A stretch of 64,000 nucleotides of DNA from Methanobacteriota archaeon (GCA_013154005.1 JAADDK010000002.1:1729-65728), one strand, 5' to 3'; positions 19,367-57,568 are shown, numbered from the stretch's first letter. Notes: generated by a model not told the origin, from the letters alone. Translations and numbers: made by a program.

Positions 19367-19390
19367 ATGGGAATAACATCTACCAGGCGG

Positions 19391-19702
19391 ATGATTGGAG
19401 AGGAAATTAAAAAAATTCGTGAAGCAGAGGAAAAAGCAGAGATGCTCGTCCGTGAGGCTCAGGAAAACAGTAAAAAGAGGGTGGAGAGTTTCAAAAAGGA
19501 GATTCAGGATAGAATAGCCGCTGAGCGAAAGGAGCTTATGGCTCGTGGCGAAGCTATGAAAAAAAGTGCTGAGGAAACTGCTAATAAAGAAGCAAAGCTT
19601 GTACGCTCGAAGTATCTTGAGAAAGCAGAGAAGATAAAGGCAATAGATGATGATAAAGTTAAAGAGACCGCTTCCGAGATTATTCATGAGTTATTAAGGT
19701 GA
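19391..19702 (+). CDS. atpH: A-type ATP synthase subunit H
   Basis: It is a small charged coiled-coil protein, MIGEEIKKIREAEEKAEMLVREAQ..., immediately upstream of atpI. The ORF track starts at 19367, but promoter geometry favours 19391. Confidence 0.75.
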   Translation: MIGEEIKKIREAEEKAEMLVREAQENSKKRVESFKKEIQDRIAAERKELMARGEAMKKSAEETANKEAKLVRSKYLEKAEKIKAIDDDKVKETASEIIHELLR

Positions 19703-19708
19703 AATAAA

Positions 19709-21841
19709 ATGCTTTTCCCAGCCAAGATGGCTGAAGTCGAGGTCCTTGTTCACAACTCGGTGAAATATCAGGTTCTTAAGGTTATGCAGCGGAATGCGTT
19801 TATCCATCTCACTCAGCATAATCTTCCTGTGGAGAATGCAAAGCCCTCTCCAGATGTCAACGTTCTGGTCGATTATAGCTTCAGACTTTCAAAGTTGATG
19901 TCCGTGCTGGATATCGCAAAAGTGAAAAAGGAAGGTATCAAGGAAATACTAAATCCCACAGCTCCCGAGCGTTTTCCAGTTAAAGATATGAATAGGGAGG
20001 AGGTACTTCAAGAGACTAAGAAACTTCTCGATGAGCTCGAGGAGGAAATACAGAGTATTGGTGAGGAGTGGGAGAAAATAGCCGAGGTTGAAGATAAACT
20101 GGAAACGAGACTCAGATATGCCCGTATGCTGTTGGGACTCGATTTTGATGTTTCATATCTCGGCACGGGTAAATATGCAATTATTACTGCAGGTACAGTA
20201 AAGGAGCTCGAACCGCTTTATAAGATTAAATCGCAAAATAAACTTGCGTTCTGGCATCGAGTAGAAGGCAAAAAAAATCCACTGTATATTGTGGTGGTGG
20301 CGTATTTAATCGAGGATAGAAAGGAGGTTGAATCAGCACTTAGATTTGCAAATTTCTCAGAGTTCGATTTAAGTGGGTTCAGGGGTAAGCCTGTGGAGGT
20401 CATAAAAGATATTGAGAACAGACTGGCAGCTGCTCAGAAAGAGCGCAAGAAACTTTTGTCGCAAATTGGGGAACTCAGAAAAAAGCATTATGGAAGAATT
20501 GCTGGTCTCTGGGATAACATCGAAAATGAAAAAATTAAAGAAGAAGCTCACAACAAAATGGGTTCAACAAAATACACAACTGTCATAAGAGGATATATTC
20601 AGAAAAAGCGTTTGGATGAGGCAATAGCCAAAATAAATGAAGTGTCAAAAGGACTTGCTTATATATCATGGAAAGACGCAGAGGGAGATAAGGTTCCAAC
20701 TGCGTTTAACAATCCCATTTTTCTCAGGCCTTTCCAGGCGTTTGTGGAGATGTATTCTATTCCGAAGTACGGGTATATAGAACCCACTGTGATAATTGCA
20801 CCTTTATTTGTTGCATATTTCGGGTTGACTCTGGGCGATGCTGGCTACGGTTTTATAATGGCAGTTTTGGGATATCTGCTTTGGTTTCATATTGGAAGAT
20901 ACAACTGGACAAACCGGACACTGGGTAAAATTCTGTTTGCCTCGGGGATCTCCGCGATAGTGTTTGGTCTGATACAGGGTAGCATATTTGGCCCGTTAAA
21001 CTCTTACAATCCTCTTTATCCATGGATTCATTATAAGCCAATTCTGGATGCCATGAACGACCCGGTCACGCTGCTGGTCATAGCGTTGATAGTCGGTATA
21101 GCACAGATTTCGCTGGGGCTTATACTGGGTGCGTATCATCATCTCAAGCACAAAAACTATGGTGATTTTCTCACTTCAGAGCTTTCGTGGTTTTTAATTT
21201 TGCCTGCGGGCGGGGCACTCATCGGCTACTATTTTGGGTGGTGGACCGTGCCCGTGATGATACAGAACATTTCATGGGTTATGCTGCTCATAGGATTTGC
21301 GCTTCTTTCGGGTGTGCCCGGGCATATGGTTAATAAAAAATCGGAAATCAACGCCATGGCGTTCTTTGACGTCACCGGGATGATTGGAGACTGGCTCTCG
21401 TATTCTCGACTTCTTGCACTTGATCTGGCCACATCCGGTCTGGCGCTTACAATAAATCTCTTTGCTGATATCATTCGGGGAATGGTTGTGGGCGCAGGGA
21501 GTATGGTATGTTGCATGCCACTTTTAATTATTGGCTTTGCGTTGTTTGCGTTCGTGGCGCGCACCAGAGATAAGATGAAAATAGGCATTGCGGCAGTTCT
21601 TCTTCTGTTCGGTGCAGTGGGTATGGTAAGTTTATCTGCGGCGCTGTGGCTGTTTATCGGGGTATTCCTGATTGCGGGGCACATTGGCAACGCGATTCTG
21701 CAATCGCTGGGCTCTTTTGTGCATTCTTTGAGGTTACAGTACGTGGAATTCTTCTCAAAATTCTATGAGGGAGAAGGTGTGAAGTTTGAACCGTTTAGAG
21801 AAATTAGGAAGCACTCGCGTGTTGGAGGTGTGAAAAAATGA
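19709..21841 (+). CDS. atpI: A-type ATP synthase subunit I (stator a-subunit)
   Basis: A soluble coiled-coil N-terminal half of about 340 aa is followed by a multi-TM C-terminal half with the conserved SYSRLLALDLATSGLA motif. Confidence 0.9.
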   Translation: MLFPAKMAEVEVLVHNSVKYQVLKVMQRNAFIHLTQHNLPVENAKPSPDVNVLVDYSFRLSKLMSVLDIAKVKKEGIKEILNPTAPERFPVKDMNREEVLQETKKLLDELEEEIQSIGEEWEKIAEVEDKLETRLRYARMLLGLDFDVSYLGTGKYAIITAGTVKELEPLYKIKSQNKLAFWHRVEGKKNPLYIVVVAYLIEDRKEVESALRFANFSEFDLSGFRGKPVEVIKDIENRLAAAQKERKKLLSQIGELRKKHYGRIAGLWDNIENEKIKEEAHNKMGSTKYTTVIRGYIQKKRLDEAIAKINEVSKGLAYISWKDAEGDKVPTAFNNPIFLRPFQAFVEMYSIPKYGYIEPTVIIAPLFVAYFGLTLGDAGYGFIMAVLGYLLWFHIGRYNWTNRTLGKILFASGISAIVFGLIQGSIFGPLNSYNPLYPWIHYKPILDAMNDPVTLLVIALIVGIAQISLGLILGAYHHLKHKNYGDFLTSELSWFLILPAGGALIGYYFGWWTVPVMIQNISWVMLLIGFALLSGVPGHMVNKKSEINAMAFFDVTGMIGDWLSYSRLLALDLATSGLALTINLFADIIRGMVVGAGSMVCCMPLLIIGFALFAFVARTRDKMKIGIAAVLLLFGAVGMVSLSAALWLFIGVFLIAGHIGNAILQSLGSFVHSLRLQYVEFFSKFYEGEGVKFEPFREIRKHSRVGGVKK

Positions 21842-23172
21842 AAAAATTGATGCTGGCTTTGCTGCTCATGCTTTTGCTGAGCGGAGTGGCGTACGGTGGA
21901 GAGGTTAATGTGACGCATTACACGTGGTATAAAACGGATACAAAAGAGACCACGTCTGTGGAATCCACCACCTTTGTGGTTGGTGATACGTATGTGTTTG
22001 AGTACAGTGATAACGGTAAGGTTTTGGATAATGTGAGCTGGGTTATCACAAACATGAATGATGGAACTGAGCATGTGTATGTGGGCAATCCGGTAAGGGT
22101 GCAGTTCCAGGAGGCCGCGTATTATAACATCACTGTTAAAGAGGGTAACAATGTGGTTTATACCCACAAGATAAAAGTCCACGATGGGCCTCTGGGTGCG
22201 TATCTTGCGCTAATCGGTGCGGGTATTGCGGTGGGTGCATCGGGTATGGGAGCGGCAATCGGTGTGGGTATTGCTGGGGCCAGCGGTACTGCTGCAATCG
22301 CTGAAGATCCTAAAAGATTTAGAAACGCGCTCATATTTCAGGCATTTCCGCAGACACAGGCTATTTACGGGCTGCTTGTGGGTATAATGATTCTGATGTA
22401 CACGCATGCGTTCGCGTCTACACTGCATGTAAACATCGACGTGCCGGTGGGCGCCGGACTTATCGCGCTTGGTGCAGGATTGTCAGTGGGTATTGCGGGG
22501 CTCAGCGCCATAGGTCAGGGTATTGTGGCTGGTACAGGTATAGGTGTGACCCGAAAAGAGGGTACGTTCGGTAAGGCTGTGGTGTTCACAGTGCTGCCAG
22601 AAACCCAGGCAATTTACGGTTTGCTTATTGCAATTCTTCTGCTTCAGGGACTAACCTGGATGATGAACAAGTCGCTATCACCATCGTATATGCTTGGCAT
22701 GGGTATCGCTGCGGTGGGTGTCGGTCTCGGCATGGGACTTAGCGGTATCACGGCCATAGGTCAGGGCATTGCTGCCGCAGGTGGTTCTGCTGCCACCACA
22801 CAGAATCCAAAGGCTTTCTCCTCATCAATTATATTTGCGGTGCTTCCAGAAACCCAGTCCATATACGCGCTTCTGGCGGGTATACTTGTAATTACGTCTA
22901 TGAACCTGATGGGTGGGGTGCCTCACTTTGCGCCGTATCAGACGGTGTTAATAGGTCTCGGGGTTCTGGGCATAGGTTTCTCGGTAGGTCTGGCAGGCAT
23001 AAGCGGTATCGGACAGGGTATAACCGCCGGAGCCGGTGCAGCGGCGTATGTGAAGAATCCAGGTACCAGAAGCCGAGCAATTATACTGTCTGTGATGAGC
23101 GAAACTTTTGCCATATTCGGATTGTTGATGGCGATACTGATTATGATGTCTCTGGGCATATTTGGAGGATGA
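21838..23172 (+). CDS. atpK: A-type ATP synthase proteolipid subunit K: four fused hairpins preceded by a signal peptide and a beta-rich ectodomain of about 95 aa
   Basis: The ATGA overlap with the atpI stop is at 21838-21841. N-terminus is MKKLMLALLLMLLLSGVAYG. The four hairpins end in AFPQTQAIYG (Gln), VLPETQAIYG, VLPETQSIYA and VMSETFAIFG. Confidence 0.85.
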   Translation: MKKLMLALLLMLLLSGVAYGGEVNVTHYTWYKTDTKETTSVESTTFVVGDTYVFEYSDNGKVLDNVSWVITNMNDGTEHVYVGNPVRVQFQEAAYYNITVKEGNNVVYTHKIKVHDGPLGAYLALIGAGIAVGASGMGAAIGVGIAGASGTAAIAEDPKRFRNALIFQAFPQTQAIYGLLVGIMILMYTHAFASTLHVNIDVPVGAGLIALGAGLSVGIAGLSAIGQGIVAGTGIGVTRKEGTFGKAVVFTVLPETQAIYGLLIAILLLQGLTWMMNKSLSPSYMLGMGIAAVGVGLGMGLSGITAIGQGIAAAGGSAATTQNPKAFSSSIIFAVLPETQSIYALLAGILVITSMNLMGGVPHFAPYQTVLIGLGVLGIGFSVGLAGISGIGQGITAGAGAAAYVKNPGTRSRAIILSVMSETFAIFGLLMAILIMMSLGIFGG

Positions 23173-23176
23173 TCCC

Positions 23177-23764
23177 ATGGCTGATTCGGTGGACAGAATA
23201 GTGGAGAAAATACTGGCAGATGCCCGTGCGCGGGCGGCTGAATTTGATCAGGAAGCCCAGAGGAAGATAGATGAGATACGAGAGGAGGAAGAATCGAGAT
23301 GGGAAAAGGAAAAGGCGCGGCTTGAAGCGGAGTTCAGGAGAGAGGCGGAGGATATACGAATCCAGATTCTCTCCAGGGCCCATATGGAAGGCAAGCGTCT
23401 TATAGTAAATGCCCGTGAAGAGGTTATCAACCGTGTAATTGAGGCGATTCGACGTGGAATCCGCGATTCTTCGGATTACTCTAACTATTTGCGGAGAAGC
23501 GTGGAAAATGCCAGGGAAATTCTCGGAGATAAATTCGTGGTAAAATGCATTCCTGAGGACAAAGAAACGGTTAATGCCATAGTTTCGGAGGTGGCTCCCG
23601 GTGCCACTGTGGAGATAGGTATGATTCGAAACGGTGGGTTACTGGTTGAGTCCATGGATGGACTTCGGGTGGTGGATTACAGTGTGGATGCCCTGGTTAG
23701 CAGGAGAATGCAGGATATTCGAAAGATGATACTGGATAAGCTGTTTGAGGGAGAGTATGCTTGA
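23177..23764 (+). CDS. atpE: A-type ATP synthase subunit E
   Basis: N-terminus is MADSVDRIVEKILADARARAAEFDQEAQRKIDEI. GGAGG lies 8 nt upstream of ATG 23177. The ORF track's TTG at 23162 is less likely. Confidence 0.85.
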   Translation: MADSVDRIVEKILADARARAAEFDQEAQRKIDEIREEEESRWEKEKARLEAEFRREAEDIRIQILSRAHMEGKRLIVNAREEVINRVIEAIRRGIRDSSDYSNYLRRSVENAREILGDKFVVKCIPEDKETVNAIVSEVAPGATVEIGMIRNGGLLVESMDGLRVVDYSVDALVSRRMQDIRKMILDKLFEGEYA

Positions 23765-24848
23765 CGCCAACACCATAATCCTGGTGGCCATATCCGCGGC
23801 CTTCATTGCCGTTCTGATAGCGGTAATCGTATTCATGGGCTATCTCCGAAAGATACTGAGCATTGCATCGTACATGGCGCCCAACGCCACGATTTTTGCC
23901 ATTGGCTCTAAATATACAGAGAATGAGTACATTGATAAACTTCTCGAGATGAGCAGTGTTCAGGAGGTTCTGGCCGATGTGAAAAAGGAGGGCTATCATA
24001 TAGATGACCCATCCGTGGCTGATATTCAGATTGAAAAAGATTTGATAGACATGCTCCGCAATGTCATTGCGACGCTTCCAGAAGGTGTGCGCCAGTTTGC
24101 GGAGGTTTACATGCTCAAATACGAGGCAAATATAGTCAAGCGGATATTGCGTGCCAAAAATGCGCGATTATCCGCTTCGGAGATTTATCGGGTTGTGTAT
24201 CCGGGAGATGTAATAAACGACCTCGTAATCAATCATATGATAGAGGCTACCGGGGTGGAGGATGCTATCGCGGCCCTTGATGCGACTCCGTTCCGGGATG
24301 CGGTTCATGCATGGGCAGAGCGCAACTCTCTGTTTGATGTGGACGTTTTTCTCGATAAAGTGGTGTTTGAGAAGATACTAGAAGCAAAAAGCACAATCGA
24401 TGAGGATAGCAGAGAGGCGGTAGAAAAGTTTTCGTCCATTTTGGTGGATGTTTATAATTTGAAGACAATAGTGAGGGCCAAGTTTGCAGGAGCGGAAGGA
24501 GTTGAGAACTATCTCGTGGAGGGGGGATATGAGCTTTCCGAATGGAAACTGAAAAATATGGCAGAGGCCCGCACCGTGGAAGAGATGCTCACCCAGCTGG
24601 AGGGCACAGAGTACGCATTTGTTAGAGAGTACAGAAACGCATTTGAGATTGAGCTTGCTCTCGACAGGTATCTTCTGAATAAGGTTAACGAAATTGGAAT
24701 GGTTTACGCGGTCTCGGCGGGACCTGCGGTGATGTTCCTGGTGGCTAAGGAATATGAGGCCAGAAATTTGAAGGCCATAATTAAGGGAATGCTTATGGGT
24801 GTCTCTCGCGATAAAATAAGAAGTATGCTGGTGGGTGGTGCGATGTGA
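23757..24848 (+). CDS. atpC: A-type ATP synthase subunit C (V-type d homologue) with a hydrophobic N-terminal segment
   Basis: Position in the operon supports the call, as do the helical repeats and the SYMAPNATIFAIGSKYTENEYIDKLL region, which corresponds to the conserved N-terminal motif of AtpC. Start is ATG 23757 (or 23745). Confidence 0.8.
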   Translation: MLDANTIILVAISAAFIAVLIAVIVFMGYLRKILSIASYMAPNATIFAIGSKYTENEYIDKLLEMSSVQEVLADVKKEGYHIDDPSVADIQIEKDLIDMLRNVIATLPEGVRQFAEVYMLKYEANIVKRILRAKNARLSASEIYRVVYPGDVINDLVINHMIEATGVEDAIAALDATPFRDAVHAWAERNSLFDVDVFLDKVVFEKILEAKSTIDEDSREAVEKFSSILVDVYNLKTIVRAKFAGAEGVENYLVEGGYELSEWKLKNMAEARTVEEMLTQLEGTEYAFVREYRNAFEIELALDRYLLNKVNEIGMVYAVSAGPAVMFLVAKEYEARNLKAIIKGMLMGVSRDKIRSMLVGGAM

Positions 24849-25165
24849 AGATGGCAGTGCTTGGCGACGAGGAATTCGTGCTGGGGTTCAAATTGGCGGG
24901 TGTGAAGGTGGCCCGCACGTGTGAGAATGCAGAGGAGACGCGCCGCGCACTGGAAGAGTTTCGAGGTATGAACGATATTGCAGTGCTATTGATTCAGCGC
25001 AAATACGCGCGAATGGTTGGAGAGTATTTGCATGAGTGGAAATCCAAGAAAGATATTTATCCGGTTATTGTCGAGCTTCCCGGGTATGGAGAGCGGGAAG
25101 AGGTTGAAGACCCGATGCGTGAAGTTATCAGAAGAGCGATAGGTATAGACATTATGAAGAGGTGA
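24845..25165 (+). CDS. atpF: A-type ATP synthase subunit F
   Basis: It is about 100 aa, with [18 protein letters not shown] and the operon position between C and A. Confidence 0.85.
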
Positions 25166-26919
25166 AAGATATGGGAAAGATAATAAGGGTTGCAGGACCC
25201 GTGGTGATTGCGGACGGTATGCGTGGCAGTGAGATGTACGAAGTGGTTCGTGTGGGCGAAGAGGGTCTCATAGGTGAGATTATAGCCCTTGCAGGAGATA
25301 GAGCCACGATTCAGGTTTATGAAGAGACCTCTGGTATAAAACCGGGTGAGAAGGTGGTACGCACCAACGCGCCTCTTTCTGTAATTCTTGGTCCCGGTAT
25401 TATTGGCCAGATTTACGATGGTATCCAGCGTCCCTTGCCAAAGATTAAGGAAAACATGGGCGATTTCATCCAGCGCGGAGCCAACGTTGCTCCGCTGGAT
25501 TTTGATAAAAAATGGCATTTTGTACCCAAAGTTAAGGTTGGTACGGAGGTGCAGGGCGGCGACGTTCTGGGTGTGGTAAATGAGACAAACCTTGTGGAGC
25601 ACCGAGTGATGGTGCCCCCCGATATTTCGGGTACAGTGGAGTTTATAGTCGATGAGGGGGATTATACCATTGAAGAAGTAATAGCCAGAATTGGCGGTAA
25701 AGATGTTAAGATGTACCAGCGCTGGCCTGTGAGAAAACAGAGACCCTTTAACAGAAAGCTGGATCCCACGGAATTGCTCGTTACTGGACAGCGTGTCCTT
25801 GATACGTTTTTCCCAATTGCAAAGGGTGGTGCAGCGGCCATTCCCGGCGGGTTCGGAACGGGAAAGACCGTGACGCAGCACCAGCTTGCAAAGTGGAGCG
25901 ATGCCGAAGTCATAGTTTATGTGGGCTGCGGTGAGCGTGGAAACGAGATGACCGAGGTGCTTGAAGATTTTCCAAAACTTAAGGATCCGAAAACGGGCGA
26001 GCCGCTTATGAACCGAACGATTCTTATAGCCAATACCTCGAATATGCCGGTGGCTGCAAGGGAGGCCAGTATTTATACGGGTATTACAATCGCTGAATAC
26101 TTCCGGGATATGGGATACAATGTGGCACTTATGGCAGATTCCACATCTCGCTGGGCCGAAGCGTTACGAGAAATTTCCGGACGTCTGGAAGAGATGCCCG
26201 GTGAGGAGGGTTATCCAGCATATCTCGCATCACGCCTCGCGGAATTCTACGAACGTGCGGGTTACGTGAATGTTCTGGGTACTGATGAGAGAAAGGGATC
26301 GGTCACAGTGGTGGGCGCAGTTTCTCCGCCGGGTGGGGACTTCTCGGAGCCGGTAACACAGAATACTTTGCGTATCGTTAAGGTGTTCTGGGCTCTGGAT
26401 GCAGAGCTTGCGCATAAACGACATTTTCCCTCAATCAACTGGCTTCGCTCGTATTCGCTGTACCTTAACACGATTCGGGGCTGGTGGGAACGAAATGTTG
26501 CAAAGGATTGGTACGATATGCGAAGAGAAGCCATGGGTATTCTGCAGAGAGAGGCTGAGTTACAGGAGATTGTGCAGCTTGTGGGTCCCGATGCACTGCC
26601 GGCTAAGGAGCAGGCCCTTCTCGAGACTGCCAGGTCCATCAGAGAGGATTTTCTGCAGCAAAACGCGTTTCATGACGTTGATACGTACTGCCCCGCGGAG
26701 AAACAGTACGATATGCTGCGCATAATATTAAAGTTCCATGCTCTTGCAACACAGGCGGTGGAACGGGGTGTGCCTGTGGACAAAATCCGCAGATTATCCG
26801 TTAAGGAAGATATAGCGTACATGGGTCGTATACCCAACGACACATACAAAGAGGAGTTTAAGAAAATTGAGGATAAGCTTGAGGCGGAGATTGCCAAGCT
26901 CATAGCCGAGGTGAGCTAA
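25162..26919 (+). CDS. atpA: A-type ATP synthase catalytic subunit A
   Basis: Contains [14 protein letters not shown], Walker [11 protein letters not shown] and the [27 protein letters not shown] motif. An alternative ATG is at 25171. Confidence 0.97.
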
Positions 26920-28326
26920 ATGGAAGTTGAATATAAAACTATAAGGGAGGTAAAAGGTCCGTTGCTAATTGTGGAAAACACCCGGGATGTGGCCTATGGA
27001 GAGGTTGTGAAGATTCGAGGCCCAGATGGTAAGGAGCGTCTGGGACAGGTGCTGGAGGCAAGAGAGAATATGGCGGTTGTGCAGGTTTTTGAAGGTACAC
27101 GCGGGCTTGATGTGAAAAACACCTCTGTGAAATTTCTGGGAGATACGCTCAAAATTGGTGTATCCCTTGAAATGTTGGGTCGTGTGTTCGATGGCACCGG
27201 GCGCCCAATAGACGGTGGTCCAGATATAATACCTGAGGAGATGCGAGATATAAACGGAAATCCGATAAATCCTGCGGCGAGGGAGTATCCCCGTGAGTTT
27301 ATTCAGACGGGCATATCCACCATCGATGGTATGAACACCCTGGTGCGCGGTCAGAAACTTCCTATATTCAGTGGTGCGGGTCTGCCGCACAACGATATTG
27401 CCGCGCAGATTGCGAGGCAGGCAAAGGTGCGTGGTGAGGGTGAAAAATTCGCCGTGGTTTTCGTGGCTATGGGCATTACCGCTGAGGAAGCCAACTTTTT
27501 CCGCAAAGAGTTCGAGAGAACCGGGGCCCTTGAACGCACTGTGCTGTTCCTGAATCTGGCAAATGATCCTGCTATTGAGAGGATTGTGATTCCGAGAATG
27601 GGACTCACGGTGGCCGAGTATCTGGCGTTCGAGAAAGATATGCATGTTCTCGTCATTCTGACAGATATGACGAATTACTGCGAAGCACTGCGCGAAATAT
27701 CCGCCGCACGAGAAGAGGTGCCCGGACGCCGTGGATATCCGGGTTATATGTACACGGACCTCGCTATGCTTTACGAGCGCGCGGGAAGAATAAGAGAGAA
27801 GAACGGAAGCATAACCCAGATCCCGATTCTGACCATGCCCGACGACGATATGACACACCCGATTCCAGACCTCACGGGGTATATCACGGAGGGTCAGATA
27901 GTGCTTAGCAGAGAACTGCATCGCCGCGGCATCTATCCTCCGATTAATCCGCTGCCTTCTCTGTCCAGACTTATGAAAGAGGGTATTGGTGAGGGGCGTA
28001 CTCGGGAAGACCACTCTGGTGTGGCGAATCAGCTTTACGCTGCCTATGCAGAGGGATTGCGTCTCCGTGATCTCGTGGCGGTGGTTGGTGAAGAGGCTTT
28101 GACAGAAGAGGACAGAATCTTGCTCAAATTTGCAGATGCTTTTGAGGATAAGTTCATCACTCAGGGCAGCGATGACGACCGCAGCATAGAAGAAACCCTG
28201 ACCATTGCCTGGGAACTGCTTGCAATGCTTCCTCGCAGTTACCTGAAAAAGATAGATAAGAAGTATATAGAGACGTATCTGCCAATGACGCCAGATGTAC
28301 CAGTACTGCCTGAAGACGAGATTTAA
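26920..28326 (+). CDS. atpB: A-type ATP synthase subunit B
   Basis: Motifs seen: [35 protein letters not shown] and [35 protein letters not shown]. Confidence 0.97.
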
Positions 28327-29207
28327 TTTATAATCTCTTTTATTATTTCTGGATATCTTGTTATTTTGTCTGCCACTATGGTTGTGCATCTTTTTCCGCT
28401 TTCTGCTATTTTTCTTGCGTGGTAGTAATTTGCTCCAGATGTGGGACCTCCCGGAATGCCCATCTTTCTAAGCATATCCATCCCTTCAATGGATTCCTGT
28501 GCGGATACATAGATAATCTGGTCCACCACATTTTCATCTATTGCCATTTGAATGAGCTCTGGAAAGCTGTGGTATGTGAAACCTTCCATAATTTCTAAGT
28601 CTTCTTCTTTTTCTCCGCTCAATTGCTCCTGTGCAAGCGAGCCACGAGGCAGCAAAAGCACAATTTCTGCATTCAGGTGTTCCTTTAGATATTTCCCAGC
28701 TCCGTACACCGTGCCCCCCGTGCCCGCACCCATTACGAACACCTCCGTGTCCGGTGCCTGCTTTGCAATCTCCGGACCGGTTGTCTCATAGTGAGCCTTG
28801 AAATTTGCCATGTTCCGAGTTTGAGCCAGAAACGTGCCACCGCGCTCCGTGGCTATTTCCTCCGCTAAAATGTGTCCATCGATATCCTCTGGCACATTGA
28901 TTATCTCAGCTCCAAACAGTTTAATCAGATTTATTTTCATGCCGCTGGTTCCCTCAGGCACCAGGATTATGCTTTTCAAGTGCATCTGTAACGCAACCCA
29001 TGCCACTGAGATGCCTGTGTTGCCGGAAGTGTATTCTACCACAGTATCTCCCGGCTTCAATCCCCTTTCCATGGCCTCTTTTATCATGTAAAAAGCGGTT
29101 CTATCTTTGTGACTTCCGGTGGGATTGAAAAACTCCAGTTTCAAATTCACGTTTCCGAATTTAATCATAGGTGTGTTACCCACTAAATGCAACATTTTAC
29201 TCACCAA
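28323..29207 (-). CDS. PLP-dependent cysteine synthase-family enzyme
   Basis: Motifs seen: GNTPMIKF...[20 protein letters not shown] (PLP lysine), [10 protein letters not shown] and [16 protein letters not shown]. Confidence 0.8.
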
Positions 29208-41973: not shown

Positions 41974-42048
41974 TGCTCCGGCCGGGATTTGAACCCGGGT
42001 CGAGGGGTTGAGAGCCCCTAATGCTTGGCCGTGCTACACCACCGGAGC
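41974..42048 (-). tRNA. tRNA-Glu (anticodon CUC)
   Basis: The reverse complement folds as a cloverleaf: acceptor GCTCCGG/CCGGAGC, anticodon arm AGGGG-CTCTCAA-CCCCT, T-arm CCGGG-TTCAAAT-CCCGG, discriminator A. No CCA is encoded. TATA TTTTTATAC is centred about 28 nt upstream. Confidence 0.9.
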
Positions 42049-52228: not shown

Positions 52229-52301
52229 TGCAGGCGCCGGGATTTGAACCCGGGCTAAGGGCTTGGAAGGCCCTTGTGCTGCCAGACTACACTACGCCTG
52301 C
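52229..52301 (-). tRNA. tRNA-Gly (anticodon UCC)
   Basis: The reverse complement is GCAGGCGTAGTGTAGTCTGGCAGCACAAGGGCCTTCCAAGCCCTTAGCCCGGGTTCAAATCCCGGCGCCTGCA. The cloverleaf has the anticodon loop CTTCCAA. TATA TTTATATA is centred about 29 nt upstream, and an oligo-T follows the 3' end. Confidence 0.9.
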
Positions 52302-54388: not shown

Positions 54389-54461
<73 letters not shown>

Positions 54462-57486: not shown

Positions 57487-57568
57487 CGCGGGGAGGGGGA
57501 TTTGAACCCCCGCGGGCAATAGCCCAATGGCTTAGCAGGCCATCGCCGTACCGCTCGGCCATCCCCGC
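57487..57568 (-). tRNA. tRNA-Ser (anticodon GCU), long variable arm
   Basis: The reverse complement is GCGGGGATGGCCGAGCGGTACGGCGATGGCCTGCTAAGCCATTGGGCTATTGCCCGCGGGGGTTCAAATCCCCCTCCCCGCG. The anticodon loop is CTGCTAA. TATA TTTTATATAT is centred about 28 nt upstream. Confidence 0.9.

What the first reader, a model, noticed from the sequence alone, without database searches (positions are those of the whole stretch)
21838..23172. ATP synthase c-ring subunit with four fused hairpins, one lacking the carboxylate, and a signal peptide plus extracellular beta domain
- Seen in sequence:
  - The atpK ORF (444 aa) starts at an ATG overlapping the atpI stop (ATGA), so the long N-terminus is not an annotation artefact of a far-upstream start.
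  - It encodes MKKLMLALLLMLLLSGVAYG (signal-like).
  - About 95 beta-rich residues follow, with a PKD-like stretch (WVITNMNDGTEHVYVGNPVRVQFQEAAYYNITVKEGNNVVYTHKIKV).
  - Four proteolipid hairpins then follow. The ion-binding position reads Q (FPQTQAIYG), E, E, E.
- Established knowledge:
  - Archaeal K subunits occur as 1-, 2-, 3- and 13-hairpin fusions. Examples are the Methanocaldococcus jannaschii triplication with one hairpin lacking the carboxylate, and Methanopyrus kandleri.
  - The N-terminus of a c hairpin faces the outside, so an ectodomain is topologically permitted.
- Inference:
  - The rotor ring would have 3 coupling sites per 4 hairpins, which changes the ion/ATP ratio.
  - The ring would carry protein domains on its extracellular face. 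I have not seen that described for any rotary ATPase.
Basis: partly seen in the sequence, partly recalled or inferred. Interest (0 to 1): 0.75.

Follow-up and report, generated by a model that had tools for sequence, protein, structure and literature searches.

The report
ATP synthase rotor subunit carrying an outside domain
The rotor-ring gene of this archaeal ATP synthase really does encode an export signal, a small immunoglobulin-like (PKD-type) outside domain and four fused rotor hairpins with only three ion sites, and dozens of uncultured relatives share this design, which I could not find described in the literature.

Summary
ORF 21838-23172 (444 aa) overlaps the atpI stop (ATGA) and has a perfect Shine-Dalgarno GGAGGTG 7 nt upstream.

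It encodes four parts:
- a Sec-type signal peptide (aa 1-20);
- an eight-strand beta-sandwich (aa 21-116);
- a 3-residue linker;
- four proteolipid hairpins with ion-site residues Q/E/E/E.

It is not an artefact. Twenty-six further proteins (67-86% identical, independent assemblies) have the same layout. The N-domain is under purifying selection. No conserved internal start exists.

The N-domain is a divergent PKD/Ig domain. More distant Thermoplasmata relatives carry a canonical PKD domain on 3- or 6-hairpin K subunits in the same H-I-K-E-C-F-A-B operon.

The "first hairpin dead" pattern (QEE, QEEE, QEEEEE, Q+11E) runs through a large family that includes the known M. jannaschii triplication.

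My best reading, which is inferred, is this. The signal peptide is cleaved and the glycosylated PKD domains sit as a co-rotating crown on the outer mouth of the ring. The ring is probably 3 x 4 = 12 hairpins with 9 Na+ sites, about 3 Na+/ATP. The crown caps and stabilises the ring, much as Ac45/Voa1 do in V-ATPases.

This is a new variant of a known kind. Its function is untested.

The parts
19367..19702 (+). small coiled-coil ORF upstream of atpI (position of atpH); first gene of the operon
   Evidence: ORF list. No Pfam hit. Called as a 103-aa gene in the public contig. Assigned by position only.
19709..21841 (+). atpI (stator subunit a/I), 710 aa; its stop overlaps the atpK start
   Evidence: PF01496 V_ATPase_I, E 8.7e-23. 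Coordinates.
21824..21830 (+). Shine-Dalgarno GGAGGTG, 7 nt upstream of the atpK ATG
   Evidence: Sequence. The same 7-mer sits at the same spacing in L001, L002, L003 and L005.
21838..21897 (+). signal peptide (aa 1-20: MKK, hydrophobic core of 15 residues, A-Y-G before the predicted cut)
   Evidence: Sequence. Present in all 27 orthologues, with small residues at -3/-1. AF2 models a low-confidence helix at aa 2-15. No signal-peptide predictor was available.
21898..22185 (+). divergent PKD/Ig-like beta-sandwich ectodomain (aa 21-116) with sequons at N24, N65 and N97
   Evidence: AF2 on aa 1-120 (the signal peptide plus this domain): mean pLDDT 86.5, above 90 through most of the domain, eight strands. 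Foldseek returns PKD domains 1wgo and 4tn9. Pfam PKD hits 13 of 25 family members. The profile hits multi-PKD proteins. W68 aligns with the Trp of WDFGDG. dN/dS is 0.06 in the closest orthologue pair. A sequon at N65 is present in 26 of 27.
22189..22407 (+). hairpin 1, 'dead': Val143 in place of the helix-1 Gln, Gln172 (codon 22351-22353) in place of the carboxylate; Thr173, Gln174 and Tyr177 are kept
22444..22659 (+). hairpin 2, full Na+-type ligand set (Q227 ... P-E255-T-Q ... Y260); E255 codon at 22600-22602
   Evidence: Ligand set as defined in PMC2359735.
22690..22899 (+). hairpin 3, full ligand set (Q309 ... P-E338-T-Q ... Y343); E338 codon at 22849-22851
22942..23151 (+). hairpin 4, carboxylate kept (Q393 ... 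S-E422-T-F ... F427); E422 codon at 23101-23103
23177..28326 (+). rest of the operon: atpE (23177-23764), atpC (to 24848), atpF (24845-25165), atpA (25162-26919), atpB (26920-28326)
   Evidence: ORFs. Pfam for E. Pfam families of the called genes in the public contig.

Best explanation
This is the genuine, only atpK (rotor proteolipid) gene of the A-type ATP synthase operon of an uncultured DHVE2-related Thermoplasmata archaeon.

Shown: it is one conserved ORF encoding a signal peptide, a PKD-like beta-sandwich, and four hairpins. The first hairpin lacks both the carboxylate and the helix-1 Gln.

Inferred:
1. The signal peptide drives Sec-dependent export of the N-terminal domain and is cut after Gly20.
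2. The domain is joined to inner-ring helix 1 by only about 3 residues. It therefore stays on the outer mouth of the ring, is probably N-glycosylated at Asn65 and Asn97, and rotates with the ring.
3. The ring is built from a few copies, most simply three. That gives 12 hairpins and 9 Na+-type sites, about 3 ions per ATP, and three PKD domains forming a crown.
4. The crown caps or plugs the central hole and stabilises or fixes the copy number of the ring. This is the role that separate lumenal subunits (Ac45/ATP6AP1, PRR, Voa1) play on eukaryotic V-ATPase c-rings.

The gene identity and architecture are near certain. The crown/cap function is my preferred but untested mechanism.
For: One ORF with a strong start:
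- ATGA overlap with atpI and SD GGAGGTG at -7, conserved in five loci.
- Twenty-seven proteins of 434-450 aa, from independent assemblies, share the layout signal peptide + about 95 aa + 4 hairpins + QEEE.
- The I-K-E synteny is the same in L002. A 6-hairpin, canonical-PKD relative shows it in a closed genome.
- This is the only K gene in the window.

The N-domain is translated and constrained:
- dN/dS is 0.06 between L002 and L003.
- Against the window, pN is 0.32-0.35 while synonymous sites are saturated.

PKD identity.

Outside location:
- K+R count is 10 in the four hairpin loops against 1 in the inter-hairpin links.
- The sequon at N65 is present in 26 of 27 and at N97 in 18 of 27.

Short linker: strand 105-115, helix from 119. 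K subunits without the extension start at the same 'LGAYLAAIGAG' motif.

Structural rather than catalytic role: the only invariant N-domain residues are core-type (W, Y, F, G, V).

Na+-type ligand set in hairpins 2 and 3 (with PMC2359735).

Twelve-hairpin idea:
- Relatives with exactly one dead first hairpin have 3, 4, 6 or 12 hairpins.
- The solved T. thermophilus K subunit occurs at 12 chains per entry.
Against: - There is no experimental evidence of export, cleavage, glycosylation or presence of the domain in the mature ring.
- Six-hairpin QEEEEE subunits of Methanomicrobiales and many 4-hairpin QEEE subunits work without any N-domain. The domain is therefore not needed for multi-hairpin rings.
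- Ring size is unknown. Apparently complete 7- and 8-hairpin relatives do not fit a universal 12-hairpin ring.
- The query's own N-domain does not reach any Pfam PKD threshold.
- Foldseek E-values are weak (4e-3).
Confidence: 0.6

Rival explanations
1. Biogenesis device only. The signal peptide and folded domain exist to route this large polytopic protein through Sec and to fix the N-out orientation of helix 1. The domain has no role in the working ring and may be clipped off at the conserved V-H-[DE]-G-P-L-G junction.
For: The signal peptide is universal in the extended forms. The junction motif (V114, G117, P118, G120) is invariant. The N-domain evolves about 3 times faster than the hairpins: dN 0.41-0.47 against 0.09-0.17.
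Against: K subunits with 4, 6 or 12 hairpins insert without any such device. A throw-away pro-domain would not be expected to keep a folded PKD core and conserved glycosylation sequons across 3-, 4- and 6-hairpin lineages. The invariant junction residues also fit a helix cap.
Confidence: 0.17
2. Uncleaved signal-anchor. The N-terminal helix is kept as a ninth transmembrane helix, possibly inside the ring pore like TM1 of V-ATPase c'' or the helices of Voa1/Ac45. The PKD domain then loops over the outer mouth.
For: In the 6-hairpin relatives the hydrophobic stretch is 20-22 residues, preceded by several Arg/Lys. That is long enough for a membrane anchor (e.g. P0050). Foldseek aligns the model to c'' subunits over about 200 columns.
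Against: In the query clade the hydrophobic core is only about 15 residues, followed by small residues at -3/-1 (A-x-G, A-x-A). This is typical of cleaved signal peptides. AF2 confidence for this helix is low (pLDDT 41-59).
Confidence: 0.13
3. The outside domain binds a partner, such as the S-layer or glycocalyx, a regulator or a virus. It would act as a brake, tether or receptor rather than as a cap.
For: PKD domains are common in archaeal surface and S-layer proteins. The profile's other hits are giant multi-PKD surface proteins. One such gene lies just downstream of the operon in L006.
Against: A tethered rotor cannot turn, so a stable tether would be lethal for the only ATP synthase operon seen. 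No conserved surface patch is evident, since the invariant residues are core-type.
Confidence: 0.08
4. Artefact: frameshift, assembly chimera or mis-called start fusing a small secreted-protein gene to a normal atpK.
For: None was found. In-frame GTG/ATG codons do occur within the N-domain by chance.
Against: Twenty-seven independent assemblies carry the same uninterrupted frame. The region is under purifying selection. A perfect conserved SD sits at the first ATG, and none is conserved near the junction. The protein is identical in an NCBI MAG and a JGI contig.
Confidence: 0.02

Closest known systems
Methanocaldococcus jannaschii-type triplicated proteolipid AtpK (NCBIfam PRK06271; 3 hairpins, 2 carboxylates)
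   Same: It is a multi-hairpin single chain in which the first hairpin has Gln in place of the carboxylate and lacks the helix-1 Gln. The last hairpin is the S/A-E-T-F/Y variant. It is the best NCBIfam match, 317.8 bits against a cut-off of 211. M. jannaschii P0353 and 54 others show QEE.
   Different: Here there are four hairpins and three sites, not three and two. There is also a signal peptide plus a PKD-like ectodomain, which the Methanococcales proteins lack (first hairpin at residue <10).
Six-hairpin PKD-K subunits of Thermoplasmata MAGs (e.g. P0050 in CP070751.1, deposited as 'PKD domain-containing protein')
   Same: Same module order (signal, PKD, dead hairpin, live hairpins), same operon slot, same 4-nt overlap with atpI. 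Hairpins 1, 2, 3 and 4 of the query correspond to hairpins 1, 2, 3 and 6 of these proteins.
   Different: They have one extra (h2-h3) hairpin pair (QEEEEE) and, in several clades, a canonical WDFGDG PKD domain that passes Pfam thresholds. The query's domain is too diverged to pass.
Enterococcus hirae NtpK and eukaryotic V-ATPase c / c'' subunits (solved structures)
   Same: They are the closest solved relatives by sequence (2bl2, E 1.7e-14) and by fold. They too are fused hairpins with fewer sites than hairpins.
   Different: They have two hairpins with one site. No solved rotor subunit is longer than 213 aa, and to my knowledge none carries an extracellular domain.
Ac45/ATP6AP1, (pro)renin receptor/ATP6AP2 and yeast Voa1 on the V-ATPase c-ring (my own knowledge of published cryo-EM structures; not tested here)
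   Same: These are protein domains sitting on the lumenal (topologically outside) face of a rotary ATPase rotor ring, turning with it and needed for assembly or stability. This is the best functional analogy.
   Different: They are separate polypeptides anchored by helices inside the ring. They are not homologous to PKD domains and are not fused to the proteolipid.
Methanopyrus kandleri 13-hairpin single-chain rotor
   Same: It is an extreme hairpin fusion within one polypeptide. A 12-hairpin analogue (P0128) turned up among relatives.
   Different: All 13 hairpins keep the site (PMC2359735). As far as I know it has no ectodomain.

Membership tests
A/V-type ATPase proteolipid subunit K/c (Pfam PF00137) | helical-hairpin domain matching ATP-synt_C above the gathering score | tested here: met
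   Four stretches, 195.4 bits against a cut-off of 24.
A/V-type ATPase proteolipid subunit K/c (Pfam PF00137) | gene located between atpI and atpE of an A-type operon | tested here: met
   Same in L002 and L006.
A/V-type ATPase proteolipid subunit K/c (Pfam PF00137) | membrane-buried carboxylate in the second helix of the hairpin | tested here: met
   E255, E338 and E422 are present. Hairpin 1 has Q172.
A/V-type ATPase proteolipid subunit K/c (Pfam PF00137) | assembles into a ring that rotates against subunit a/I | not testable with these tools
   Needs biochemistry or a multimer model.
M. jannaschii-type multi-hairpin K (NCBIfam PRK06271) | score above the curated cut-off | tested here: met
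   317.8 bits against 211.
M. jannaschii-type multi-hairpin K (NCBIfam PRK06271) | first hairpin without the carboxylate (Gln) | tested here: met
   The Q/E pattern is QEEE here and QEE in M. jannaschii P0353.
M. jannaschii-type multi-hairpin K (NCBIfam PRK06271) | three hairpins, no N-terminal extension | tested here: not met
   Four hairpins and a 118-aa extension.
PKD domain (Pfam PF00801 / PF18911) | sequence match above the Pfam threshold | tested here: not met
   The query has no PKD hit even at E <= 1. Thirteen of 25 family members do hit (best E 3.9e-5). The 6-hairpin relatives pass the threshold.
PKD domain (Pfam PF00801 / PF18911) | Ig-like beta-sandwich fold closest to PKD domains | tested here: inconclusive
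   The top Foldseek hit is the SorCS2 PKD domain (E 4.4e-3), and ColG PKD domains also appear. E-values are weak, and other Ig-like folds score similarly.
PKD domain (Pfam PF00801 / PF18911) | conserved Trp of the WDFGDG motif and the C-terminal G-x-Y-x-V-x-L strand | tested here: met
   W68 is invariant and aligns with the Trp of WDFGDG. 'YYNITV' aligns with 'GTYNVTL'.
Sec-type cleavable signal peptide | positive n-region, hydrophobic core of 7-15 residues, small residues at -3/-1 | tested here: met
   MKK + LMLALLLMLLLSGVA + A-Y-G, by inspection, and conserved in 27 orthologues. No dedicated predictor was available, so the cleavage itself is untested.

The most novel reading that the evidence does not exclude
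The PKD domains are a working part of the rotor. Three copies form a glycosylated crown that plugs the ring and fixes it at 12 hairpins. The lineage then tunes its ion/ATP ratio purely by how many hairpins are fused behind one dead hairpin: 8, 9, 10 or 11 sites per 12 hairpins for the 3-, 4-, 6- and 12-hairpin genes. This would be the first rotary ATPase whose rotor carries a covalently attached extracellular domain, and a natural external handle on the rotor.
Probability: 0.3. Interest if true: 0.85.

Novelty: new variant of a known kind. Interest (0 to 1): 0.72.

Why it matters
Rotor rings of rotary ATPases are thought of as bare helical hairpins. A 2022 paper from a leading laboratory lists archaeal c subunits as having '1, 2, 3, or even 13 hairpins' (PMC9171764).

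This gene differs in two ways.
- It belongs to a large uncharted set with 4, 6, 7-9 and 12 hairpins.
- It has a folded, exported, probably glycosylated domain fused to the rotor. I found no paper describing this.

If the domain stays on the ring, three things follow.
- It bears on how rings are capped, assembled and given a fixed size.
- It offers a prokaryotic counterpart to the Ac45/Voa1 plug of V-ATPases.
- It provides a natural outside handle for single-molecule rotation work.

The series with exactly one dead hairpin per chain also makes the question 'how is the ion/ATP ratio tuned?' directly testable.

Tried and rejected
- Frameshift, chimera or two genes: rejected.
- Internal start near 22150-22190: the window has an in-frame GTG at codon 106, preceded by AGAGGGT. 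No SD-plus-start combination is conserved at codons 100-125 in five loci.
- Pfam and NCBIfam on the N-domain alone gave only noise (T9SS sortase N at E 1e-3, below cut-off; plastocyanin-like at 0.033).
- A PDB sequence search with the N-domain profile gave only marginal collagenase hits (E 0.012).
- Looking for a cultured host of the 4-hairpin PKD form: no hit in the two censuses came from a named isolate. No hit sat on a contig longer than 1 Mb, apart from two closed Thermoplasmata MAG genomes. Cluster look-up returned no names. Aciduliprofundum boonei therefore apparently does not have this form, though I could not read its genome.
- Literature searches for a PKD or Ig domain on a c/K subunit found nothing. 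Subscription-only papers are not covered.
- A universal 12-hairpin ring was considered, but apparently complete 7- and 8-hairpin relatives (P0064-66, P0062) do not fit. I keep it only as the simplest case for this clade.
Full report
**1. Observation**

The window holds an A-type ATP synthase operon on the + strand:
- a small coiled-coil ORF (19367-19702);
- atpI (19709-21841);
- the ORF in question (21838-23172);
- atpE, atpC, atpF, atpA and atpB (to 28326).

The 444-aa ORF starts at an ATG that overlaps the atpI stop as ATGA. A perfect Shine-Dalgarno, GGAGGTG (21824-21830), precedes it by 7 nt.

Pfam finds four ATP-synt_C domains (E 1.4e-58) and nothing in residues 1-120. NCBIfam's best model is PRK06271, the three-hairpin Methanocaldococcus-type K subunit, at 317.8 bits against a cut-off of 211.

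I built a hairpin HMM from the four repeats. It places them at 22189-22407, 22444-22659, 22690-22899 and 22942-23151, and finds no other K gene in the 64 kb. The aligned ion-site residues are Q172, E255, E338 and E422. The helix-1 Gln position reads V, Q, Q, Q.

**2. It is not an artefact**

The identical protein is deposited from an NCBI MAG ('Euryarchaeota archaeon', GXO25_00225) and from a 70,976-bp JGI contig of metagenome 3300005095.

Twenty-six further proteins of 434-450 aa are 67-86% identical over 95-100% of the length. They come from independent assemblies and share the same layout: signal peptide, about 95 residues, four hairpins, QEEE.

Species-representative genomes that carry it are labelled 'DHVE2 group archaeon' and 'uncultured Thermoplasmata archaeon'. 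In L002 the gene has the same ATGA overlap with atpI and is followed by atpE.

All five DNA loci have GGAGGTG 7 nt before the signal-peptide ATG. No Shine-Dalgarno plus start codon is conserved around codons 100-125.

The N-terminal region evolves as a protein:
- In the closest pair (L002/L003), dN/dS is 0.06 for residues 21-116.
- Against the window, synonymous sites are saturated (pS 0.74-0.84) while pN is only 0.32-0.35.

**3. What the N-terminal module is**

Residues 1-20 have the n-region (MKK), a hydrophobic core of 15 residues, and small residues at -3/-1 (A-Y-G). All orthologues show equivalent A-x-G, A-x-A or V-S-A ends and none has a lipobox Cys.

AlphaFold2 models residues 21-115 as eight strands:
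- N-terminal 120 residues alone (signal peptide plus domain): mean pLDDT 86.5, above 90 through most of the domain.
- Full-length model: pLDDT 78, pTM 0.73.

Foldseek against the PDB returns these hits for the domain:
- the PKD domain of SorCS2 (1wgo, E 4.4e-3);
- an Ig-like Leptospira protein;
- the ColG collagenase PKD domains.

The E-values are weak and other Ig-like folds score nearby.

Sequence evidence is stronger at the family level:
- Pfam PKD matches 13 of 25 orthologous N-domains (best E 3.9e-5), though not the query itself.
- A profile of the N-domains, run against 1.84 billion representatives, gives 182 hits. Apart from K fusions, these are giant multi-repeat proteins that Pfam calls PKD.
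- In an alignment with distant relatives that carry a canonical WDFGDG PKD domain, the query's invariant W68 falls on the PKD Trp. 'YYNITV' falls on 'GTYNVTL'.

So it is a divergent PKD/Ig domain. Its invariant residues are core-type (W, Y, F, V, G, and a G-N-P turn). That points to a structural role rather than an enzymatic or ligand-binding one.

**4. Topology**

The four intra-hairpin loops contain 10 Lys/Arg. The three inter-hairpin links contain 1, and the C-terminus contains none. The loops are therefore cytoplasmic, and the N-terminus and links are outside. This is the accepted topology of c/K subunits (my own knowledge).

An N-X-S/T sequon at Asn65 is present in 26 of 27 orthologues, and one at Asn97 in 18 of 27. 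This fits an exported, glycosylated domain.

The last strand ends at residue 115 and helix 1 begins at 119. K subunits without an extension begin with the same 'LGAYLAAIGAG' motif. The domain is therefore attached almost directly to the outer end of an inner-ring helix.

**5. The wider family**

Two censuses (and 56/57) show a large family whose first hairpin is 'dead': V/A/T in place of the helix-1 Gln, and Gln in place of Glu.

| Form | Pattern | N-terminal module | Where found |
|---|---|---|---|
| 3 hairpins | QEE | none | Methanococcales, including M. jannaschii P0353 |
| 3 hairpins | QEE | signal + PKD | P0286, P0297, P0299 |
| 4 hairpins | QEEE | none | about 320 aa, 26 clusters; named ones from Thermoplasmata, Hydrothermarchaeota, a Methanosarcinales MAG and Diapherotrites |
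| 4 hairpins | QEEE | signal + PKD-like | this clade |
| 6 hairpins | QEEEEE | none | Methanomicrobiales, including cultured Methanocalculus, Methanofollis and Methanomicrobium |
| 6 hairpins | QEEEEE | signal + PKD | about 55 clusters; the named ones are Thermoplasmata/Thermoplasmatota MAGs |
| 12 hairpins | Q + 11 E | none | one chain, P0128, 969 aa |

One 6-hairpin PKD form (P0050) lies in a closed 5.16-Mb genome, in an H-I-K-E-C-F-A-B operon with the same 4-nt I/K overlap.

Hairpin-by-hairpin identities show that the query's hairpins 1, 2, 3 and 4 correspond to hairpins 1, 2 (or 4), 3 (or 5) and 6 of the six-hairpin forms. The two forms differ by one (h2-h3) unit.

Litty and Müller (2022) still list archaeal c subunits as having '1, 2, 3, or even 13 hairpins' (PMC9171764). 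I found no paper linking a PKD or Ig domain, or a signal peptide, to a c/K subunit. No solved rotor subunit is longer than 213 aa, and to my knowledge none carries an extracellular domain.

**6. Coupling sites**

Hairpins 2 and 3 carry the complete Na+ ligand set defined from the I. tartaricus and E. hirae rings. This set comprises the helix-1 Gln, then Glu, Thr, Gln and the stabilising Tyr (PMC2359735).

Hairpin 4 keeps Gln, Glu and Thr, but has Phe at the last two positions.

Hairpin 1 lacks the Gln and the Glu but keeps Thr173, Gln174 and Tyr177, all invariant. In the solved rings, a site is completed by the neighbouring hairpin. The retained residues plausibly serve the adjacent site; this is inference.

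The ring therefore has three sites per four hairpins, and the predicted ion is Na+.

**7. Mechanism: best reading**

Shown: gene identity, architecture, conservation and constraint.

Inferred: the signal peptide is cleaved, and the PKD domains remain on the outer mouth of the ring and turn with it.

Forms with one dead hairpin per chain have 3, 4, 6 or 12 hairpins. The solved T. thermophilus K subunit appears at 12 chains per entry. The simplest model is therefore three copies, giving:
- 12 hairpins;
- 9 sites, or 3 Na+ per ATP;
- a crown of three PKD domains.

I think the crown caps the central hole and stabilises or fixes the oligomer. This parallels the lumenal Ac45/ATP6AP1, PRR and Voa1 subunits of V-ATPases (my own knowledge).

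Caveats:
- Many multi-hairpin K subunits do without the domain.
- Apparently complete 7- and 8-hairpin relatives exist.
- No multimer model or coordinates were available.

**8. Rivals**

- The N-terminal module is only a Sec-targeting or topogenic device, possibly removed.
- The signal is an uncleaved anchor lodged in the pore like c'' TM1.
- The domain binds an external partner.
- It is an artefact (rejected).

Probabilities and tests are given in the structured fields.

**9. Verdict**

The object is a new variant of a known kind: a rotor proteolipid with an exported PKD-like domain and a 3-of-4 site pattern. It is widespread in uncultured Thermoplasmata relatives but, as far as I could find, undescribed. 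Its function is untested.

Noticed in passing
P0128 (969 aa, JGI; 90%-identity cluster of P0010): A single-chain K subunit with 12 hairpins, pattern Q + 11 E and no N-terminal extension. It is a near-monomeric rotor comparable to the 13-hairpin Methanopyrus kandleri protein, but with a dead first hairpin.
   Followed up: partly
P0043, P0054, P0103, P0115 and about 30 other clusters (472-486 aa): Cultured Methanomicrobiales (Methanocalculus, Methanofollis, Methanomicrobium sp. W14) encode six-hairpin K subunits with pattern QEEEEE and no extension. The hairpin numbers quoted in the literature are 1, 2, 3 and 13. These isolates would allow ring size and ion/ATP ratio to be measured.
   Followed up: partly
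P0062 (QEEEQEEE), P0049 (EEQEEEQEEE, cut at its N-terminus), P0064-66 (QEEEQEE), P0079 (EQEQEQE), P0031 (QEEEEEQEE): Seven- to ten-hairpin K proteins in which dead hairpins recur with a period of 4, 2 or 6. They look like tandem fusions of the shorter units. Several come from short contigs and may be fragments.
   Followed up: no
P0372, P0378, P0385-P0392 (about 324 aa; P0390 'ATP synthase F0 subunit C', Desulfatitalea sp.): Bacterial F-type c subunits with four fused hairpins and site pattern EQQE or EQEE, which means only two or three carboxylates per four hairpins.
   Followed up: no
P0371, P0377, P0379 (231-235 aa): Two-hairpin K subunits (site pattern M/E) with a signal-peptide-like start and an extension of about 75 aa that does not look like PKD. 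Exported N-terminal extensions on K subunits may have arisen more than once.
   Followed up: no
P0124 (799 aa, in the cluster of P0095): A six-hairpin PKD-K with a 306-aa N-terminal region, about twice the usual length. It may carry two outside domains or have a mis-called start.
   Followed up: no
window 28323-29207 (- strand), directly after atpB (26920-28326): The operon ends at atpB. The next gene is a convergent PALP-family (pyridoxal-phosphate enzyme) gene, so the central-stalk gene atpD is not in its usual place after atpB. The same is true of the closed Thermoplasmata genome locus L006, where a 1,835-aa multi-PKD protein follows atpB.
   Followed up: no
window 41974-42048, 52229-52301, 54389-54461, 57487-57568 (all - strand): Four tRNA genes. 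No rRNA or other Rfam family reaches threshold in the window.
   Followed up: no
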